A stretch of DNA of 64,000 nucleotides from a phage. This document shows, one piece after another, positions 51,063-57,353 of this stretch. Position 1 is the stretch's first letter. Every line of letters starts with the position of its first letter. The stretch lies in the sequence record NC_101838.1. One strand, 5' to 3'. The notes under the pieces are model-generated. The model did no database searches and was not told where the DNA came from. It saw only the letters and a program-made list of their open reading frames with translations. Position numbers and translations under genes: made by a program.

Positions 51063-52544
51063 TTACTTAGCGTACTCGATTAATTCCACAGTTTTCCCAA
51101 AGCTCGGGATATAATTTTTATTATACCCTTCGGTGAGAACCCATAAAGTATCGTACTTTTTCCACTTGTTGTCAACAGCCTTTTGTTCAAAGTTATGCTC
51201 AAAGTAGAGGTCGGTAAGGACGATGACATCTTTTGCATTCGGTATGTTAGCATCCAGATACTCGAACACGCAGGCGGCTGTTGTGCCCCATGTTGAGTGG
51301 ACCTCATAGTTAATCATCTCATCGATGTTACCGCGAGTGTATACTTTAACCTCTCCAACCTCCGTTGACCAACAGAACATAGTAACCTTAAACTCTTTAT
51401 ACAAATTGCACAACCCGGTGATCTCATTGAACATTTTCTTTAAAGTTCTTTGTGAGATCGACCCAGAAACGTCTAAAGCCACTACAATATCTATAGTGTT
51501 TTCCGGATTACGACCAGGAACAATAACGTGTTGATTCTTGTTTATAGCTCCAACTTTTCGCATTGTGGTGGTCAAAGACCCAGATCGGCGACCAGGTTTT
51601 CTGTAGGTTAACTCAGCCTTTCTTTTAGATAACATACGTTGCTTAATAATATCTATATAATTGATTACAGGCTTGCCTCTGTTTTTGACAAACTCGCGCA
51701 CCGCCTCGGGACAACGACCTCCTGAAGCTTGCATTGCTGCTTCCAACATGTCACCAGAGTCCTGCATGGCCTGATCTTTGTCAGATTGACTGATTACTGG
51801 TTGCGGCTGATCATACCCCATAGCCTTTCCAAGATCATCACTAGTGCCACCGTTCCCGCTCATGTGATCATCGGTTTGTCGTTTATCTCCTTGGGAGTTC
51901 TCACCTTTACCGTTCTTACTTTTACCGCCATTCTGATCTCTTTGTTTATCAAGAACTGCATAGACGTTCTCAGCAATCCATCCATGAAACCTCATGTCGC
52001 AGTAGCAATTAGCTAAGAAGCCAAAAGGCTTACCTTTTACGAACTCAGTGCTTTTCCCCTTCGGGAAGAAAACACAAGGAGGCTTGCTAAAGTCAACCAC
52101 AAGACCTGTGTTGATAACGTGATCACAAGCAATATTGAACAGTTCCGGCTCAAAGCTTTTACCACGGACCAGATGATCACAGATAATATGCCCCACCTCA
52201 TGTGACAGAAGAAAGGCCACCTCTTTCACAGATTTTGGGGAATAGAAAACCTCAGCCATCTCAAACTGCTTGTCAGTCAGAGATGCTTTAAGAATGGTTT
52301 TACGCTCATCCGCCAACCCCATAATGAACTCAGGGCTGTAGTAGATGCGTTTATGGTCGGTTGCCATGGTGGAGCACCATGTGTGGTTTTCTACGAACTG
52401 CAACCCTGACAGTAGTGTGCCATAAAACGGCAGCTTTTCAAGGAGATACATACGTGCAGCCTGCAACATTCTCAGGGCATCATCTTTCTGCGAGGCAATG
52501 ATTTCTGAACTTCTGCTATCCATTAAAACTCCAGAAGGGGCCAT
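51063..52544 (-). CDS. HExxH metallopeptidase-like domain plus von Willebrand factor A domain protein
   Basis: 493 aa; N-terminal LLSHEVGHIICDH zinc-binding motif; C-terminal vWA MIDAS motif IVVALDVSGSIS. Confidence 0.6.
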   Translation of the reverse strand: MAPSGVLMDSRSSEIIASQKDDALRMLQAARMYLLEKLPFYGTLLSGLQFVENHTWCSTMATDHKRIYYSPEFIMGLADERKTILKASLTDKQFEMAEVFYSPKSVKEVAFLLSHEVGHIICDHLVRGKSFEPELFNIACDHVINTGLVVDFSKPPCVFFPKGKSTEFVKGKPFGFLANCYCDMRFHGWIAENVYAVLDKQRDQNGGKSKNGKGENSQGDKRQTDDHMSGNGGTSDDLGKAMGYDQPQPVISQSDKDQAMQDSGDMLEAAMQASGGRCPEAVREFVKNRGKPVINYIDIIKQRMLSKRKAELTYRKPGRRSGSLTTTMRKVGAINKNQHVIVPGRNPENTIDIVVALDVSGSISQRTLKKMFNEITGLCNLYKEFKVTMFCWSTEVGEVKVYTRGNIDEMINYEVHSTWGTTAACVFEYLDANIPNAKDVIVLTDLYFEHNFEQKAVDNKWKKYDTLWVLTEGYNKNYIPSFGKTVELIEYAK

Positions 52545-52556
52545 TGGCCCCTGTCA

Positions 52557-53597
52557 TTATTTAACGTGTTTGAAAATACCTGCCAACTCGGTCATTGTCA
52601 TGCGGGTGGTCTTCATAAGATCTGTCATAGCTTTCTCCATAATTGGAGATACTACCATAAAGTTTCCTTTAGTGAAACCTTTATTCCAGTCGGTCACCAA
52701 CAGGGGTTTAAGTCCAGCTCCAAGACGTTCACCAGTTAAAGCACAGCATTTGCGAATATACGAACTCTTAAATTGGCTGAATGACAGATCAACTTTCATA
52801 CCTACATCGTAGAACGTTTGACAATAGAAAGTGTAAGCTTTGGCAATCTCAACATCATCAGGTAGTGCAGGAACCTCTTCTGTAAGCTCCTCTTCGACCT
52901 CCTGAGTCTCTTTTTCCTCTTCATGCACCTGTTGCGTCATTTCTTCAATCTCTTCTGTGATAGGCTCGTTTACAATGTCGGAAATGTGCTTCTTGGGTGC
53001 ACGATAAGTAACTTTAGACATCGGTAGCATATCTTCCTCCTCTTCTTCGTCAAAGAGTGCTAGTTTATCCTCTTCCGTTCCATATTGCAAGATGAAATCT
53101 TCAAAAGTATAATCACCTTTCAATTTCTCCATACGCTCTTCGCTCAGGTGGAGCATCATCTGCTGGACAATTTTTCGATCAGTTTCGTCTTTAATCAAGA
53201 CTGCAGTCTTTTTATCTACCAGACAGTCCTTTAGAGAGTTGCATCTCAATCCCACCACACAACAGTTATCAACCGCATAAGGACCTTCATCATCTATCCG
53301 CTCCAGGGATGGGTAGAAAGGATTCCCCAGCCCGTTTTCATCTGTGTGCATGTCAAAAGGTATAAGGGTATAGTCGCATACTCCATCTCCTAAAAGTTTT
53401 TTACCAAATAGGAGGTATTCTTCCCATGACAGGTCGAACTCTATATCTCGTTTCCGTGCGTTATTCTGTTTGCGTCTATATTTTTTGAGCAAGCGCTCTA
53501 ACTCTTCTGGTGTATAATATTTTTCAAGATTCATGAGTCGTCTCTCGTGCTCTGTAAGTGAAGAAATCGTATCAATTGTCTCAACAGATGTCAACAT
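52557..53597 (-). CDS. Endonuclease VII/HNH-like zinc-binding domain protein with acidic linker and C-terminal domain
   Basis: N-terminal region GDGVCDYTLIPFD...ERIDDEGPYAVDNCCVVGLRCN resembles EndoVII-type fold (recalled); acidic linker DEEEEED; internal Met preceded by SD-like GGAGGAAG lies in a 27-bp inverted repeat; ATG 53597 preferred over track TTG 53600. Confidence 0.4.
   Translation of the reverse strand: MLTSVETIDTISSLTEHERRLMNLEKYYTPEELERLLKKYRRKQNNARKRDIEFDLSWEEYLLFGKKLLGDGVCDYTLIPFDMHTDENGLGNPFYPSLERIDDEGPYAVDNCCVVGLRCNSLKDCLVDKKTAVLIKDETDRKIVQQMMLHLSEERMEKLKGDYTFEDFILQYGTEEDKLALFDEEEEEDMLPMSKVTYRAPKKHISDIVNEPITEEIEEMTQQVHEEEKETQEVEEELTEEVPALPDDVEIAKAYTFYCQTFYDVGMKVDLSFSQFKSSYIRKCCALTGERLGAGLKPLLVTDWNKGFTKGNFMVVSPIMEKAMTDLMKTTRMTMTELAGIFKHVK
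52998..53024. repeat. 27-bp inverted repeat, left copy
   Basis: Exact reverse complement of 54862-54888 (CCGATGTCTAAAGTTACTTATCGTGCA); overlaps an in-frame Met of the minus-strand ORF. Confidence 0.85.
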
Positions 53598-53607
53598 CAA
53601 AAACGTG

Positions 53608-53636
53608 TTGACTTTACTCTAACTCCACAATATAGT
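53608..53636 (+). promoter_or_regulatory. sigma70-like promoter (TTGACT-17-TATAGT) for plus-strand early block
   Basis: -35 53608-53613, -10 53631-53636, in the divergent intergenic region. Confidence 0.5.
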
Positions 53637-53676
53637 GCACCCATTCGAAAGAAAACTAACATAGGAGCACTTACTT

Positions 53677-54576
53677 ATGGCAAATCTTAACAGTTTTAGT
53701 ACGCGGTGGAAACAGGACATAACAACCAATCTTTCAGCTGGGGACATCCTTTCTGCAATTTACGAGGCTTTAGATGATAAAGCTACTTCAAAAGCGGTTT
53801 GTACCAACCCATTAATTCCTATAGTGATGAAGGTTATTGAGCGTAGATTGGTATCTGGGTCTGATAAGTGGACATATTTAGATAATGAAGGACACACCTA
53901 TTCCAATGGGTATGTCGATATAAAAGTAGAATACGCGGTATCATACCGCCGGAGCGGTTCTGTAACTTTCAACTTCTCTGGAGGTTTTCGATCTCTGGCC
54001 ACCTCACCTTTTGTTTCCTCAGAGGAGAAGTATGAGCTGCCATTTCTTTGGATGATGGCTAACGCGACAGGAAAAACCCCCGTTAGCATCCGAGTAAAAT
54101 ACAACTACAACGGATCTAGTAAGATCTATGCCGAAAGTGTCTCAGCAAGTTTTTATTTTGTGATGGGGGATGGAATCCTCAAACATATAAAGATGTGCGA
54201 TATGCATGATGTTATAAATGAAGTGACTGATAAGAATGTTCTAGTGAAAGACCTCAACAATTTTTATACACCCGGAGACTATTACGTCAGCCGTCCACTG
54301 TGCATCTTTAATGCCGCACACCCTCTAGGTGAGTATTTGATCGCCAATAGCGATATTGCCAATAACCGCTTCGAGGTAGCAAGAGTTCAGAATGAGGTAT
54401 TGACATCTTGCAAGAGCGGTGATAAGTTTACCGAAGAAGAGATGGGTGTTTTAGAAATGATGGGATATAAGTGTAGCCTTTGGGTAGATGAGGTGTTCAA
54501 TGATTGCATCTATGGACAGGATATTTACCCATTAAAGAAGTATACTGATTCCAGTTTAATTTACGCGGAGATTTGA
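53677..54576 (+). CDS. hypothetical early protein
   Basis: 299 aa; AGGAG RBS; downstream of promoter 53608-53636. Confidence 0.45.
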   Translation: MANLNSFSTRWKQDITTNLSAGDILSAIYEALDDKATSKAVCTNPLIPIVMKVIERRLVSGSDKWTYLDNEGHTYSNGYVDIKVEYAVSYRRSGSVTFNFSGGFRSLATSPFVSSEEKYELPFLWMMANATGKTPVSIRVKYNYNGSSKIYAESVSASFYFVMGDGILKHIKMCDMHDVINEVTDKNVLVKDLNNFYTPGDYYVSRPLCIFNAAHPLGEYLIANSDIANNRFEVARVQNEVLTSCKSGDKFTEEEMGVLEMMGYKCSLWVDEVFNDCIYGQDIYPLKKYTDSSLIYAEI

Positions 54577-54578
54577 CT

Positions 54579-54851
54579 ATGATGAAGTCATGTGGTAGTG
54601 TATATTATGTTGGTGAGAATGTTCAGGCAGATAGTGTGTGGAAATCCATTAAGTCCACCACCGATGATGCCTTTCTGAGCGGGTTATGTTTTCCCAGCCC
54701 AGGGGACACTCTCCCTTACCCTGGAGATTTTGTTGTCAACAAGATGGACGGTTATACCGTGTGCCTGATGGTTGAAAAAATCTTTTTAGACACTAGACAC
54801 AATCACCGTCTTGTGTTAAAATTTCAAGAATGTAAAATGACAATTGCCTAA
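54579..54851 (+). CDS. hypothetical protein
   Basis: About 90 aa from ATG 54579 (track TTG 54573); GGAG RBS. Confidence 0.35.
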   Translation: MMKSCGSVYYVGENVQADSVWKSIKSTTDDAFLSGLCFPSPGDTLPYPGDFVVNKMDGYTVCLMVEKIFLDTRHNHRLVLKFQECKMTIA

Positions 54852-54861
54852 GGAGACCTTG

Positions 54862-54888
54862 CCGATGTCTAAAGTTACTTATCGTGCA
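54862..54888. repeat. 27-bp inverted repeat, right copy
   Basis: CCGATGTCTAAAGTTACTTATCGTGCA; contains ATG 54865 start of acidic protein gene. Confidence 0.85.
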
Positions 54889-55221
54889 GCTATTTACTGC
54901 AATGAACACCCAATCAATAATGATGGTCACTGCCTTTTTAAAGAAAATCAATTGGGCTGTATTGTCCTCCCTGATGAAGGGGAAGGTTATCTGATTGCGT
55001 TGACAGGGTTTGAACCTGAAGCTCTGGAAGCCAATCTTGACTACCTGGTAGAGGAGGGTGCTGCAGACCTGGTTGCCAATGGCCTCTCCATAAGCCTTGA
55101 CGAAGTGGAGCGCTTCATGGGCAATTACCGTGTAGTGCGTGAGTTTACTATCGAGGTGGAAACTCCAGAGTGGGGTAGCCATGAAACTAATGCCGAAGAA
55201 AAAGAAGAGGAGGTAGAATAA
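54865..55221 (+). CDS. acidic hypothetical protein
   Basis: 118 aa from ATG 54865 (track TTG 54844); AGGAGA RBS; first 8 codons lie in the 27-bp inverted repeat; C-terminus highly acidic (EEKEEEVE). Confidence 0.45.
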   Translation: MSKVTYRAAIYCNEHPINNDGHCLFKENQLGCIVLPDEGEGYLIALTGFEPEALEANLDYLVEEGAADLVANGLSISLDEVERFMGNYRVVREFTIEVETPEWGSHETNAEEKEEEVE

Positions 55222-55478
55222 TGAAAGTGCAGATCTTGACTAATGCCGAGAAGATGTTTATTGAAGATACACCTTTTGAAGCTGGTGAGCTACAGTTCAT
55301 TTATTTTGTTGACTTAGATAAGGTGTTCCCTGCACTGAATCTTGGTCTGGATGAAGTTCCTCATAAGGTTTTGTGCCAAGTTGTTCGTGCATTAGCGGCA
55401 GATGGGGAGTTCCACACCCTTGAAGATGTCCAGACCTACGGGTATCTTGAACTACAACGAGAAGAAGAGGTGGACTGA
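55221..55478 (+). CDS. acidic hypothetical protein
   Basis: 85 aa; start overlaps upstream stop. Confidence 0.35.
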   Translation: MKVQILTNAEKMFIEDTPFEAGELQFIYFVDLDKVFPALNLGLDEVPHKVLCQVVRALAADGEFHTLEDVQTYGYLELQREEEVD

Positions 55479-55480
55479 TA

Positions 55481-55861
55481 ATGGCCCAGTGGAAGACAAC
55501 AGTTGACCTTCATGATCAGTGGTTAGGACGCATCACTGAAGACGGGAAGCTAGTGGAGTGGGACAATAAGCATGTTAGCGAGTTGGCAAGTATTGTAGCT
55601 GGCAAGTTACGCTCCAAGTTCCCTGAACAACTGGATCCTGATAGTTCAAAGTTCGATCCTGAGTTAGAGGATGTTGTATACTACTTCGACACCGTTGATG
55701 ACTACGACGCGTGGTTTGCAGCACGGGAGCTTTACCCACAAGGCTCTGCTATGCGCCAGATGGAAGAAGATTATCCTCCGTGCGAGCAATTTAATAGCGC
55801 AATGACTTGCCTCTACGATTGGGCAGATAAGAACCTTGTCTGGATTCGGACTGCATTCTAG
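55481..55861 (+). CDS. hypothetical protein
   Basis: 126 aa; TAG stop. Confidence 0.35.
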   Translation: MAQWKTTVDLHDQWLGRITEDGKLVEWDNKHVSELASIVAGKLRSKFPEQLDPDSSKFDPELEDVVYYFDTVDDYDAWFAARELYPQGSAMRQMEEDYPPCEQFNSAMTCLYDWADKNLVWIRTAF

Positions 55862-55875
55862 CAGGTGGGGCAAGG

Positions 55876-56169
55876 ATGCCACTTAAAAGAGTAATAAACA
55901 TGTTATACCAGAAACACGAACTTTGTGCAGAAAAAGAGTTAAATTTTGACAAAGTTATCCACAGATATTGTTATGGAAAAACCGGAAGACAATTAAGAAG
56001 ATGCACTCCAGCATTCTTTCACCCCAGCAGGCGACTAAGCCCTGAAGAAGCAACAGCAGAAAGGGTTGCATACAACTGGGAAGTTGTGTACGATATTGAC
56101 AGATCCGATGTGACATCTGTTTTGGAAAACTTTGAAAACACTTACACACAAGTAGAGGACTTTTACTAA
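55876..56169 (+). CDS. hypothetical protein
   Basis: 97 aa; stop overlaps start of AAA+ gene. Confidence 0.35.
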   Translation: MPLKRVINMLYQKHELCAEKELNFDKVIHRYCYGKTGRQLRRCTPAFFHPSRRLSPEEATAERVAYNWEVVYDIDRSDVTSVLENFENTYTQVEDFY

Positions 56170-57353
56170 TGTCAAGAAACGTATTTGAAAGTGGTCAAAT
56201 CACTGTCCGTGAGTTGCCAGCCATCATTCAGTTTGCCCAGCGTCATAACCGATCTGTCCTGATTTTAGGACCAATGGGCGTGGGGAAGAGCCAGGTGATG
56301 AAGCAGATCGCTGATAATATGTTCGGTGAGCGAGATGACAACCTGGTTGACGTGCGGCTGTCAGATAAAGATCCTGCCGACTTATCTGGGCTACCTATCC
56401 CTGTAGAAGCGGATGGAACTACACGTACAGTGTTTGCAATTCCAGAATTTTGGCCTGCAGATCCGGACTGGAGCGGAATTATCTTTCTGGATGAGCTCAC
56501 TCATGCAGATAACTATCTGCAAAAGGTTGCAATGCAGATTATGCTCGACCACAAGTGCGGCACCTATGCATTCCCTAAAGGCTCTGTTTTTGTGGCTGCG
56601 GGTAACCGTTCTACAGATGGTGCGGTTCTTTCGGCGCTCGAAGCCCCTCTGGCTAACCGTTTTATCATTGTAGAAGTTACAAGCAATGCAGAGGTGTTTA
56701 TTGAGGACTACGCATTCCTCAATGGGGTGCACTCCTCTGTAATTGGGTATCTGAAAAGAGTTCCATCAGCTATCGATAATTATGAGGCTATGGCTGAGAT
56801 TAATTGTCCATCTTTTGCCACACCGCGATCTTGGGTTGCTGCATCTGACATCTTGCACGATTTTGACAGCGGTATTATTTCTGACGCTATGGCCCGTGTT
56901 CTTCTGCAAGGTGCTATTGGTCACACTGCAGCGGTAGAGATCTGGACCTACCACACCAAGAAACGCAACTTACCGGAAATCGGTCGGATTATGGCAGGGG
57001 GTTGCAAAGAATACATAGGTCCTAAACAGCCAGACATCTTGTGGATTCTTGGGTCTGAAGGTTGTATCGCTATTCGTAATATGATGGAAAATGCAAGTAT
57101 CTCCGACGAAGATCTTGTTAGCTGTGTAGCAAACTTCCTCGATTTCCTTTGGGAAAATTTCAAGGACGAGAACCGAGATTTTGTATTCTCAGTCTTTATG
57201 GCGATGATGAAACCTAATGCCTTAGGAAATGCCTTGCTTATCGGTAAAGGGCGTGACAAGATCGTTGCTCAACTGATCAAAGCGTACCCAAACCTGATGA
57301 AGATTGTAAAAGAGTTTGGTGAAGAGTTTAGCGCCATTTTAGCTAAAGCTTAA
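56169..57353 (+). CDS. MoxR/CobS-type AAA+ ATPase
   Basis: 394 aa; Walker A LILGPMGVGKSQ, Walker B IIFLDELTHA. Confidence 0.7.
   Translation: MSRNVFESGQITVRELPAIIQFAQRHNRSVLILGPMGVGKSQVMKQIADNMFGERDDNLVDVRLSDKDPADLSGLPIPVEADGTTRTVFAIPEFWPADPDWSGIIFLDELTHADNYLQKVAMQIMLDHKCGTYAFPKGSVFVAAGNRSTDGAVLSALEAPLANRFIIVEVTSNAEVFIEDYAFLNGVHSSVIGYLKRVPSAIDNYEAMAEINCPSFATPRSWVAASDILHDFDSGIISDAMARVLLQGAIGHTAAVEIWTYHTKKRNLPEIGRIMAGGCKEYIGPKQPDILWILGSEGCIAIRNMMENASISDEDLVSCVANFLDFLWENFKDENRDFVFSVFMAMMKPNALGNALLIGKGRDKIVAQLIKAYPNLMKIVKEFGEEFSAILAKA

What the first reader, a model, noticed from the sequence alone, without database searches (positions are those of the whole stretch)
52557..53597. EndoVII/HNH-like zinc-binding domain fused through an acidic linker to an unrelated C-terminal domain
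The N-terminal 190 aa carry a Cys-rich region (GDGVCDYTLIPFD ... ERIDDEGPYAVDNCCVVGLRCN) reminiscent of the Endonuclease VII fold, but the canonical His residues of the catalytic HxDH segment appear replaced (RIDDE). This suggests either a divergent nuclease or a DNA-binding derivative. It is followed by DEEEEED and a 155-aa domain that begins in the 27-bp inverted repeat. The similarity to Endonuclease VII is from memory of the family signature.
Basis: partly seen in the sequence, partly recalled or inferred. Interest (0 to 1): 0.45.

Follow-up and report, generated by a model that had tools for sequence, protein, structure and literature searches.

The report
Phage Srd-like protein with doubled HNH
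An early gene of an rV5-like coliphage encodes a relative of phage T4's host-takeover protein Srd: a PacI-type nuclease-like domain (tyrosine in place of the usual catalytic histidine, no zinc cluster) followed by a degenerate second copy of itself. The gene family was already catalogued, but this anatomy gives a testable idea of how Srd-like proteins work.

Summary
The ORF, its motifs, the acidic run and the 27-nt inverted repeat are all real. The window is a Vequintavirus (rV5-like), and the gene is rV5 gp011, labelled "Srd-like", "anti-sigma factor" or "HNH endonuclease". The true start is probably ATG 53534 (325 aa), downstream of a near-consensus sigma-70 promoter.

PacI is the HNH enzyme that lacks the catalytic His and uses a loop tyrosine. 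Its Asp-Arg, Tyr, Asn, Asn113 and Lys positions correspond to E78-R79, Y86, N90, N99 and K102, which are invariant or nearly so in 116 relatives and also kept in T4 Srd. Only one of PacI's four aligned zinc cysteines is conserved.

The "unrelated" C-terminal domain is a degenerate duplicate of the N domain (hhalign 97.8%, E 8e-13). In two metagenomic phages the halves are adjacent separate genes.

The 27-nt repeat is a patch copied from the start of the neighbouring gp8-like gene, in 27 of 107 relatives.

Function is inferred: an early nucleic-acid-directed host-takeover factor, possibly acting through RNase E like T4 Srd.

The parts
53566..53594 (-). Sigma-70-type early promoter (TTGACA, 17 nt, TG-TACGAT) that drives the gene. 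It is paired with a divergent promoter-like site at 53608..53636 (+).
   Evidence: The consensus scan matches 10 of 12 positions with an extended TG. rV5 annotates promoter P11 at the homologous place.
52557..53534 (-). CDS of the Srd-like protein, 325 aa plus stop; homologue of rV5 gp011 and Murica gp11.
   Evidence: The protein matches phrog_3118 over its full length at E 8e-113. All 117 related phage records that match the 2.6-kb region cover at least 80% of it, so none lacks the gene.
53214..53510 (-). N-terminal PacI-type HNH (beta-beta-alpha-metal) core, residues 9-107: a basic helix (K22, R29), C53-D-Y55-T56, strand 1, an omega loop, strand 2 and a helix.
53229..53309 (-). Active-site-type segment S76-L-E78-R79-I-D81...Y86...N90...N99..K102. 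It aligns with PacI D92-R93, D95, Y100, N104, N113 and K116.
   Evidence: The column counts over 116 relatives are E/D78 116, R79 116, Y86 116, N90 116, N/H99 116 and K102 114. The residue equivalences come from the HMM alignment. The PacI mechanism is taken from PMC5714182, PMC4081073 and PMC3996161.
53052..53213 (-). Helical subdomain following the HNH core (residues 108-161, four helices). It is also covered by the match to T4 Srd.
   Evidence: AF2 predicts helices 117-129, 132-138, 144-151 and 154-167, with block-mean pLDDT 93-97 over residues 101-160. BLASTP with T4 Srd extends to residue 143. The PHROG Srd profile matches residues 35-241 of the 347-aa ORF.
52869..53051 (-). Acidic, disordered, length-variable linker (residues 162-222, about 36% Asp+Glu), beginning with DEEEEED. 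It contains in-frame ATGs (M169, M172) preceded by an SD-like GAGGAGG.
   Evidence: pLDDT block means are 43-63 over about residues 171-220. Close relatives differ here by insertions, deletions and substitutions.
52998..53024 (-). Arm of the 27-nt perfect inverted repeat, encoding P-MSKVTYRA within the linker. It is a short patch copied from the start of the gp8-like gene.
   Evidence: establish the repeat. rV5 reads MSPMQDFKNFMADRAA at this place. 27 of 107 related records carry the patch, while the others match only at the gp8 start. rV5 gp8 starts MSKVTYRAA.
54862..54888 (+). Partner arm of the inverted repeat. It covers 3 nt upstream of, and the first 8 codons of, the gp8-like gene (54865..55221, phrog_12908, unknown function).
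52560..52868 (-). C-terminal degenerate copy of the same domain (residues 223-325). It keeps C264, T267, D282 and N291 but has V280, L279, F287 and E300 at the Arg, Glu, Tyr and Asn positions.
   Evidence: hhalign of the N profile against the C profile gives 97.8%, E 7.6e-13 over 75 columns. T4 Srd residues 30-80 align to residues 249-295. AF2 block-mean pLDDT is 91-98 over residues 221-320.
52536..52552 (.). GC-rich hairpin just after the stop codon and before the DUF2201 metallopeptidase/VWA gene. Murica annotates it as a terminator.

Best explanation
SHOWN BY COMPUTATION. The gene is the first gene behind a strong sigma-70 promoter in an rV5-like phage. Its product belongs to the Srd family and has four parts:
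- A His-Me finger (HNH) domain of the PacI type. The general-base His is replaced by an invariant Arg. An invariant Tyr sits in the loop between the two strands. The two metal-ligand positions (Glu/Asp78, Asn/His99) and a Lys are kept. The Cys4 zinc clusters of PacI and EndoVII are not kept.
- A small helical subdomain.
- A roughly 60-residue acidic, disordered, fast-evolving linker.
- A second copy of the same domain that has lost the Arg, Glu, Tyr and second Asn.
In other phages the two halves are adjacent separate genes, and in others both tandem copies keep the motif.

INFERRED. The working unit is a pair of such domains, mimicking the PacI homodimer. In this protein the pair would be an intramolecular pseudo-dimer with a single intact site. 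That conserved site binds, and possibly cuts, a phosphodiester of a nucleic acid with one divalent metal. The protein acts early in infection to take over host nucleic-acid metabolism. By homology with T4 Srd, the most concrete candidate function is acceleration of host mRNA decay together with RNase E.

MY ESTIMATES. Fold, PacI-type site and duplication: about 0.9. The site is functional in nucleic-acid binding or cleavage: about 0.55. True nuclease activity: about 0.35-0.4. An RNase E-linked role like T4 Srd: about 0.35.
For: IDENTITY AND CONTEXT. The region is 99.2% identical to phage EdH4, and all 117 related records that match it cover at least 80% of it, so none lacks the gene. rV5 gp011 is noted as 'Srd-like'.

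SEQUENCE. The family profile's best PDB hit is PacI at E 0.011, with D92-R93, Y100, N104, N113 and K116 aligned to E78-R79, Y86, N90, N99 and K102. hhalign against the PacI family gives 96.8%, E 2e-10. PacI itself matches phrog_3118, phrog_3322 and phrog_1035, the same families hit by the window protein and by T4 Srd.

CONSERVATION. R79, Y86 and N90 are present in 116 of 116 relatives, E/D78 in 116, N/H99 in 116 and K102 in 114. 25 members of the T4 Srd clade keep ER, GY, GN and YN.

PACI MECHANISM. PacI has no His; a Tyr in the omega loop substitutes, and the metal is held by an Asp and N113 (PMC5714182, PMC4081073, PMC3996161).

DUPLICATION. hhalign of N against C gives 97.8%, E 7.6e-13. T4 Srd's one domain matches both halves.

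CO-FUNCTION OF THE HALVES. 117 of 148 representatives have the N+C architecture. Six have two N-type copies; a motif scan finds the full motif in both copies of one, and three more keep D-R, GY and both Asn in both copies by eye. Contigs L008 and L009 encode N and C as adjacent, overlapping genes, each with its own RBS and ATG.

T4 SRD FUNCTION. Srd binds the catalytic N-terminal half of RNase E and speeds host mRNA decay (Qi et al. 2015, as summarised in PMC4980113, PMC7430671 and PMC13232886).
Against: There is no experiment on this protein or on any two-domain member.

The sequence-only link to PacI is borderline in a database-wide search (E 0.011). The T4 Srd clade profile does not reach PacI directly (0.5%), so that link runs through the rV5-type profile.

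PacI depends on Cys4 zinc sites that are absent here, so the geometry of the site may differ. I could not inspect model coordinates or inter-domain contacts. The pTM is only 0.58, and the TM-scores to two-domain homologue models are only 0.32-0.42, so the pseudo-dimer packing is unverified.

The only characterised relative, T4 Srd, is reported to act through RNase E rather than as a nuclease. It shares only the N domain and helical part (24% identity over the aligned stretch) and has a different tail, so transfer of function is uncertain.

Invariant residues could also serve protein binding or fold stability.
Confidence: 0.6

Rival explanations
1. The protein is a non-catalytic adaptor just like the current model of T4 Srd. 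The HNH-like domain is a pseudo-nuclease scaffold that binds the catalytic half of host RNase E and stimulates it, and the conserved 'active-site' residues serve protein contacts or RNA presentation without cleavage.
For: The N domain and the helical subdomain are homologous to T4 Srd: PHROG Srd profile 2.9e-10, BLASTP 3e-7, HMM 60.8 bits, hhalign 98.9%. Srd binds the RNase E N-terminal half and accelerates host mRNA decay. Both are early genes of lytic coliphages. Inactive His-Me fingers that retain binding are known, namely Smad MH1 and ENPP.
Against: Every PacI catalytic position is invariant or nearly so across relatives that share only 20-30% identity. That is more than a protein-binding scaffold usually keeps. 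T4 Srd has a different C-terminal tail and no second domain, and it is not known which part binds RNase E. Identity to Srd is only 24% over the aligned stretch.
Confidence: 0.3
2. This is the first reader's reading: an Endonuclease VII-like, zinc-binding junction or branched-DNA nuclease (or a DNA-binding derivative) fused to an unrelated C-terminal domain.
For: The domain has the same superfamily fold. T4 EndoVII 1e7l appears in the Foldseek list at E 2.7. T4 gp49 and the window protein both hit phrog_1035, at 4e-6 and 1e-10. C53 and C98 occupy two of the four canonical Zn-ligand positions.
Against: No Pfam Endonuclease_7 or HNH match is found for this protein or for any of 116 relatives. hhalign against the gp49 family gives 2.7%. 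The H-x-D-H segment and the Cys4 cluster are absent family-wide. The C-terminal domain is a duplicate, not unrelated.
Confidence: 0.04
3. This follows the database label: an anti-sigma factor or decoy of host sigma-70 that redirects host RNA polymerase.
For: Many GenBank records use 'anti-sigma factor'. phrog_4592 'decoy of host sigma70' matches at 2.9e-15. The T4 record calls Srd a 'postulated decoy of sigma factors'.
Confidence: 0.04
4. The gene is a free-standing HNH homing endonuclease, that is, a selfish mobile gene.
For: PacI-like HNH genes have been proposed as homing endonucleases in Skunavirus. Some single-domain relatives carry N-terminal extensions that could bind DNA (judged by eye only). 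RefSeq uses the label 'HNH endonuclease'.
Against: All 117 related records that match the region cover at least 80% of it, so the gene is present in every one. It is also syntenic with the DUF2201 gene in the more distant Seunavirus and in metagenomic contigs. It sits directly behind an early promoter and shows no presence/absence polymorphism. The two-domain architecture with a dead copy is conserved in 117 of 148 representatives.
Confidence: 0.02

Closest known systems
PacI restriction endonuclease (PDB 3LDY/3M7K; His-Me finger 'group 20' of Jablonska et al. 2017)
   Different: This protein has no Cys4 zinc sites (1 of 4 aligned ligands is conserved, 2 of 4 in this protein) and no N-terminal zinc ribbon. 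It has an extra helical subdomain. Its second copy is catalytically degenerate. It is a phage early gene, not a restriction enzyme. No DNA target is known and no activity has been shown.
Bacteriophage T4 Srd (phrog_1400; 'anti-sigma factor' in databases; RNase E stimulator, Qi et al. 2015)
   Same: The N-terminal domain is homologous and carries the same ER...GY...GN...YN motif, and the following helical part is shared. Both are early or host-takeover genes of a lytic coliphage. rV5 gp011 was annotated 'Srd-like'.
   Different: T4 Srd has one copy of the domain plus an unrelated tail of about 150 residues. The C-domain HMM hits only Srd's N-terminal domain. Identity is 24% over the aligned stretch. 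The RNase E function has been shown only for T4 Srd.
T4 Endonuclease VII (gp49; Pfam PF02945 Endonuclease_7)
   Same: Both have the beta-beta-alpha-metal superfamily fold, and both match the bridging family phrog_1035.
   Different: This protein gives no Pfam match, and hhalign gives 2.7%. It has no H-x-D-H segment and no Cys4 zinc site. Its architecture and its position in the genome are also different.
Catalytically dead His-Me finger domains (Smad MH1; ENPP1-3 nuclease-like domain)
   Same: They are a precedent for the C-terminal copy: the fold is kept, the catalytic His or Tyr is lost, and the domain is retained for binding or structural support.
   Different: Those are eukaryotic domains in unrelated architectures. 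Here the dead copy is a paralogue of an adjacent copy that looks intact.

Membership tests
Endonuclease VII (Pfam PF02945; T4 gp49) | Significant match to the Endonuclease_7 profile or to a gp49 family profile | tested here: not met
   Pfam gives no hit for this protein at E up to 10, and none of 116 relatives matches it. hhalign of the N profile against six gp49 homologues gives 2.7% probability.
Endonuclease VII (Pfam PF02945; T4 gp49) | Catalytic H-x-D-H segment with a His general base | tested here: not met
   The segment reads L-E-R-I-D. Arg79 occupies the His position in 116 of 116 relatives.
Endonuclease VII (Pfam PF02945; T4 gp49) | Cys4 structural zinc site (CxxC...CxxC) | tested here: not met
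   The aligned positions are C53, T56, G95 and C98. Family-wide they are Cys in 115, 1, 0 (not among the four commonest residues) and 10 of 116. Metal content itself cannot be tested here.
Endonuclease VII (Pfam PF02945; T4 gp49) | Domain-swapped dimer that resolves branched DNA | not testable with these tools
   This needs biochemistry or an experimental structure.
His-Me finger / HNH superfamily | Beta-beta-alpha-metal fold | tested here: met
   [not shown]
His-Me finger / HNH superfamily | Catalytic histidine at the end of strand 1 | tested here: not met
   It is replaced by an invariant Arg79. The same exception is known for PacI, group 20 of the superfamily classification.
His-Me finger / HNH superfamily | Metal-ligand positions (an acidic residue before the His position, and Asn or His in the helix) | tested here: met
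   Position 78 is E in 102 and D in 14 of 116. Position 99 is N in 111 and H in 5 of 116. This is alignment-level evidence only; metal binding was not tested.
PacI group (His-Me finger group 20) | Specific sequence and structure similarity to PacI | tested here: met
   [not shown]
PacI group (His-Me finger group 20) | Asp-Arg in place of Asp-His, plus an omega-loop Tyr acting as general base or nucleophile | tested here: met
   E78-R79 and Y86 align with PacI D92-R93 and Y100, and R79 and Y86 are invariant. Y100 is the only Tyr between the PacI strands (sequence). Its role is taken from PMC5714182 and PMC4081073. Catalysis was not tested.
PacI group (His-Me finger group 20) | Two Cys4 zinc sites | tested here: not met
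   There is no N-terminal zinc ribbon, and the second site keeps only 1 of 4 ligands family-wide.
PacI group (His-Me finger group 20) | Homodimeric, sequence-specific double-strand DNA cleavage | not testable with these tools
   Only the tandem and split-gene pairing of two domains is seen.
T4 Srd family (phrog_1400) | Homology to the Srd N-terminal domain | tested here: met
   phrog_1400 matches at 2.9e-10. BLASTP gives 3e-7. The N HMM scores 60.8 bits on Srd residues 11-92. hhalign of the Srd clade against the N profile gives 98.9%.
T4 Srd family (phrog_1400) | Srd architecture: one domain plus the Srd-specific C-terminal tail | tested here: not met
   The window protein has a second, degenerate copy instead of the tail. 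In Srd the C-domain HMM finds only the N-terminal domain.
T4 Srd family (phrog_1400) | Binds the RNase E N-terminal half and stimulates host mRNA decay | not testable with these tools
   This is known only for T4 Srd, from the literature.
Anti-sigma factor (database label) | Similarity to a known anti-sigma family, or binding of sigma-70 | tested here: not met
   Pfam and NCBIfam give no meaningful match. The label derives from the 'postulated decoy' note on T4 Srd. Binding cannot be tested here.

The most novel reading that the evidence does not exclude
Srd-family proteins, including T4 Srd itself, are not anti-sigma decoys or passive RNase E adaptors. They would be working tyrosine-dependent, zinc-less PacI-type metal nucleases. 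They would act as a pair of domains with one live site (a built-in nickase or RNA endonuclease), and their own cuts in host nucleic acid would initiate host shut-off or co-operate with RNase E in it.
Probability: 0.25. Interest if true: 0.65.

Novelty: new variant of a known kind. Interest (0 to 1): 0.4.

Why it matters
T4 Srd is one of very few phage proteins known to reprogram RNase E, and how it works is unknown. Its relatives in rV5-like, phi92-like, Aeromonas and many uncultured phages carry contradictory labels: anti-sigma factor, anti-termination protein, HNH endonuclease, hypothetical protein.

Placing the family next to PacI turns a vague label into a concrete experiment. The family keeps every PacI catalytic position, has no zinc cluster, and its domains occur as a live copy plus a dead copy, as two copies that both look intact, or as two split genes. 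Mutating Y86, R79, E78 or N99, or the matching residues in T4 Srd, and then testing nuclease activity, RNA binding and RNase E stimulation, would decide between the readings.

If the site is catalytic, it would be a second, widespread lineage of tyrosine-type HNH enzymes. It would also revise the Srd model. If the site is not catalytic, the family is a clean example of a nuclease active site re-used for binding.

The result also flags several propagated annotation errors.

Tried and rejected
- Single-sequence searches against Pfam, NCBIfam and PDB sequences gave nothing useful.
- The first AlphaFold run, with 7 close homologues, was unusable at pLDDT 47. A 116-sequence alignment was needed.
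- BLASTP of the N half against the C half found nothing (E 5.8). Only profile-profile comparison showed the duplication.
- Scanning 116 relatives, and ten relatives with other architectures, against Pfam found no HNH or EndoVII family and no informative fused domains.
- PADLOC gave no defence-system match.
- Apparent 'C-only' proteins were checked. P0038 is a contig-end fragment. The 'N-only' proteins P0039 and P0075 turned out to be real split genes followed by a C-type gene.
- The T4 Srd tail is not a hidden C domain.
- A direct T4 Srd clade to PacI profile comparison fails (0.5%).
- No conserved gene partner was found outside Vequintavirinae; the DUF2201 neighbour is absent in Aeromonas and phi92-like phages.
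- There is no second copy of either domain elsewhere in the window.
- Literature searches found no paper linking Srd to HNH or PacI. The primary Srd and PacI papers (PMC4649665, PMC2886031) are not held.
- I considered the 27-nt inverted repeat as a structural or regulatory DNA element and rejected that reading. It is absent from rV5 and about 80 relatives, and it matches the ancestral start of the gp8-like gene.
Full report
1. WHAT IS IN THE SEQUENCE

It encodes all the quoted strings: GDGVCDYTLIPFD, ERIDDEGPYAVDNCCVVGLRCN and DEEEEED.

A near-consensus sigma-70 promoter (TTGACA, 17 nt, TG-TACGAT) lies at 53594..53566, inside that ORF. rV5 annotates promoter P11 at the same place. Phage Murica annotates the CDS from the ATG that corresponds to window 53534. 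The product is therefore most likely 325 aa (52557..53534), and I use that numbering throughout.

A GC-rich hairpin (52536-52552), annotated as a terminator in Murica, follows the stop codon.

The 27-nt perfect inverted repeat is real: 52998-53024 and 54862-54888, with none expected by chance.

2. WHERE THE WINDOW COMES FROM

The region is 99.2% identical to Escherichia phage EdH4 and 98-99% identical to Murica and many other Vequintavirus (rV5-like) phages. All 117 related records that match the region cover at least 80% of it, so none lacks the gene.

Other records call it anti-sigma factor, anti-termination protein, HNH endonuclease or hypothetical protein.

The downstream gene encodes a DUF2201_N metallopeptidase-like plus DUF2201 VWA-like protein. 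The upstream, divergently transcribed genes have no known function.

3. DATABASE-LEVEL IDENTITY

Pfam, NCBIfam and PDB sequence searches with the single protein find nothing meaningful.

PHROGs places it full-length in phrog_3118, labelled 'HNH endonuclease', at E 8e-113. Its N-terminal part also matches:
- phrog_4592, 'decoy of host sigma70', at 3e-15;
- phrog_3322, 'endonuclease', at 1e-13;
- phrog_1035, 'endonuclease VII', at 1e-10;
- phrog_1400, 'Srd anti-sigma factor', at 3e-10.

A profile search of 1.84 billion representatives finds 760 relatives at E up to 1e-3, mostly 230-330 aa. None of 116 of them matches any Pfam HNH or Endonuclease_7 model.

4. THE C-TERMINAL DOMAIN IS A DUPLICATE

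BLASTP of the two halves against each other shows nothing. T4 Srd, however, aligns with both halves. Srd 4-133 aligns with residues 8-143 (E 3e-7), and Srd 30-80 aligns with residues 249-295 (E 1e-3).

Profiles of the N half (residues 14-112) and the C half (222-325), cut from the 116-sequence alignment, align with 97.8% probability, E 7.6e-13, over 75 columns. The register is:
- DIEFDLSWEEY...C53DYT...SLERID...Y...N...VV (N half)
- GMKVDLSFSQF...C264ALT...PLLVTD...F...N...VV (C half)

The 'unrelated C-terminal domain' is therefore a divergent copy of the N domain.

5. FOLD

A first AlphaFold run with 7 close homologues failed at pLDDT 47. With 116 diverse sequences the model reaches pLDDT 88.7. 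Two well-predicted modules span residues 1-167 and 223-325. The segment between them is disordered: pLDDT is below 50 at 182-198, and block means are 43-63 over about residues 171-220. Each module contains a strand-loop-strand-helix unit.

Foldseek against the PDB returns almost only HNH nucleases at the top: the GeoCas9 HNH domain, PacI, Gme HNH, McrA and Cap5. T4 EndoVII 1e7l appears at E 2.7. The E-values are weak but consistent.

Against predicted viral structures the model matches its own two-domain family first. It then matches giant-virus HNH proteins (Medusavirus, Pandoravirus, Fadolivirus) and T4-like Srd proteins. Giant-virus proteins are the main members of the PacI group in the His-Me finger classification (PMC5714182).

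6. PACI, NOT ENDONUCLEASE VII

The family profile's best hit among all PDB sequences is PacI, at E 0.011 over PacI residues 30-123.

Against a small PacI family alignment (six homologues), the N profile gives 96.8% probability, E 2e-10, over 88 columns. The C profile gives 2%.

Against six T4 gp49-type Endonuclease VII sequences the N profile gives 2.7%.

PacI itself matches phrog_1035 (8e-12), phrog_3322 and phrog_3118 (3e-4), the same set hit by the window protein and by T4 Srd. T4 gp49 matches phrog_1035 only weakly, at 4e-6. The connection to EndoVII is therefore at superfamily level only.

7. THE ACTIVE-SITE PATTERN

PacI is the known exception among HNH enzymes. It has no catalytic His, and a Tyr in the loop between the strands takes its role. 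The single metal is held by an Asp and by Asn113 (PMC5714182, PMC4081073, PMC3996161).

The HMM alignment and the column counts over 116 relatives give these equivalences:

| PacI residue | This protein | Conservation in 116 relatives |
|---|---|---|
| D92 | E78 | E 102, D 14 |
| R93 | R79 | 116 |
| D95 | D81 | D 88, N 18 |
| Y100 | Y86 | 116 |
| N104 | N90 | 116 |
| N113 | N99 | N 111, H 5 |
| K116 | K102 | 114 |

Y100 is the only Tyr in the PacI loop.

K22 and R29, in the preceding helix, are also conserved (108 and 112 of 116).

The 25 members of the T4 Srd clade keep the same E-R, G-Y, G-N and Y-N residues.

By contrast, PacI's zinc ligands C63, C66, C109 and C112 align with C53, T56, G95 and C98. 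Only the first is conserved across the family. The description 'zinc-binding' is therefore not supported.

The C copy has L279, V280, F287 and E300 at the Glu, Arg, Tyr and second-Asn positions. It keeps only C264, D282 and N291, so it is not expected to be catalytic.

8. ARCHITECTURE ACROSS THE FAMILY

Of 148 representatives, 117 have the N+C arrangement.

Six have two N-type copies. A motif scan finds the full motif in both copies of P0129. P0131, P0142 and P0149 keep D-R, GY and both Asn in both copies when read by eye.

Others are single-domain, including T4 Srd. The Srd tail is not a C domain.

In two unrelated metagenomic phage contigs the halves are separate, adjacent, overlapping genes, each with its own RBS and ATG:
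- L008: 956-1408 and 1395-1778;
- L009: 3001-3435 and 3432-3824.
The C HMM scores 74 and 95 bits on the downstream genes.

Fusion and fission of the halves, together with tandem intact copies, argue that two such domains work together. This parallels PacI, which works as a homodimer. That step is an inference. I could not inspect inter-domain contacts: pTM is 0.58, and TM-scores to two-domain homologue models are only 0.32-0.42.

9. THE LINKER AND THE 27-NT REPEAT

The linker (residues 162-222, 36% acidic) is the variable part of the gene. Close relatives differ there by insertions, deletions and substitutions, while the two domains are nearly identical.

The repeat arm encodes P-MSKVTYRA inside the linker. 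Its partner covers the first eight codons of the gp8-like gene (54865..55221), 1.8 kb away on the other strand.

rV5 and about 80 other relatives have the sequence only at the gp8 start; rV5 gp8 begins MSKVTYRAA. Their linker reads MSPMQDFKNFMADRAA. 27 of 107 records carry the patch.

The patch was therefore copied from gp8 into the linker in one sub-lineage. It is flanked by short shared stretches, CCGATG and ATCGTGCA. It is a recombination scar in a tolerant linker, not part of the folded domain and probably not a functional DNA element.

10. MECHANISM

Shown by computation: the fold, the PacI-type residue pattern, the absence of the zinc cluster, the duplication, the split-gene variants and the early-promoter context.

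Inferred:
- The conserved site of the N domain is functional in binding, and perhaps cutting, nucleic acid with one metal ion.
- The dead C copy is its partner, standing in for the second subunit of a PacI-like dimer.
- The protein is an early host-takeover factor.

The only characterised relative, T4 Srd, binds the catalytic half of RNase E and accelerates host mRNA decay (Qi et al. 2015). That is the most concrete candidate function. However, Srd shares only the N domain and the helical part, at 24% identity over the aligned stretch.

The chief rival is a purely non-catalytic adaptor. The anti-sigma, EndoVII-resolvase and homing-endonuclease readings are poorly supported: see the rival explanations, and for presence of the gene in every related genome that matches the region.

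11. NOVELTY AND VERDICT

The gene family is already catalogued, and 'HNH endonuclease' already appears as a label. That label seems partly accidental, because the same label is attached to the unrelated DUF2201 neighbour.

I found no paper in the held library linking Srd to HNH or PacI. PacI-like HNH genes have been noted in Skunavirus as putative homing enzymes.

What appears to be new is:
- the specific PacI-type, tyrosine-bearing, zinc-less site shared by the whole Srd family;
- the pairing of a copy that looks intact with a dead copy;
- the gene-fission variants.

I rate this a new variant of a known kind, of moderate interest (0.4).

Noticed in passing
window 51063..52544 (-), probable start 52523: The downstream gene is a DUF2201_N putative metallopeptidase plus DUF2201 VWA-like protein (Pfam 2e-28 and 4e-11). 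PHROGs (phrog_1314) and RefSeq (rv5_gp012, SSE121 gp112) nevertheless call it 'HNH endonuclease', which looks like a propagated annotation error.
   Followed up: partly
window 52000-54600 versus INPHARED records MG065655, MG065658, MG065662, MG065677, MG065690 and others: Sixteen records named 'Campylobacter phage' (host C. jejuni) are 90-100% identical to E. coli rV5-like phages across this region. They are probably mislabelled or contaminant genomes.
   Followed up: no
window 53018..53053 (-): Inside the acidic linker, an SD-like GAGGAGG lies 6 nt before the in-frame ATG of M169, with a second ATG at M172. A weak promoter-like site (TTGACG, 16 nt, TATGCT; 53053..53026) lies just upstream. 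Because other phages encode the C half as a separate gene, internal initiation of a free C-domain product is conceivable. This was not tested.
   Followed up: partly
window 54865..55221 (+) and 52995..53027 (-): The rV5-type linker and the gp8-like start already share the flanks CCGATG and ATCGTGCA(GC) on either side of the copied patch. This microhomology could have guided the short-patch transfer.
   Followed up: partly
phrog_1035 (PHROGs library): The family labelled 'endonuclease VII' is matched by PacI (8e-12), the window protein (1e-10), T4 Srd (9e-8) and true T4 gp49 (4e-6). It is a bridging or mixed family, so its label should not be read as gp49-like.
   Followed up: yes
P0129, P0131, P0142, P0149, P0168: These relatives have two tandem N-type copies. 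A motif scan finds the full motif in both copies of P0129, and P0131, P0142 and P0149 keep D-R, GY and both Asn in both copies by eye. They look like single-chain versions of a PacI-like dimer. Some single-domain relatives (P0122, P0138) carry N-terminal extensions that look like small DNA-binding domains by eye, with no Pfam hit.
   Followed up: partly
window 53566..53636: Back-to-back divergent sigma-70-like promoters, 53594..53566 (-) and 53608..53636 (+), each matching 10 of 12 consensus positions, drive the two early gene blocks.
   Followed up: no
window 55202-55223, 55462-55483, 56150-56171: A junction sequence, AAGAAGAGGAGGTAGAATAATG, recurs between small early genes of unknown function. 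It combines an acidic C-terminus, an RBS and a stop/start overlap, which suggests translational coupling.
   Followed up: no
[not shown]
   Followed up: no
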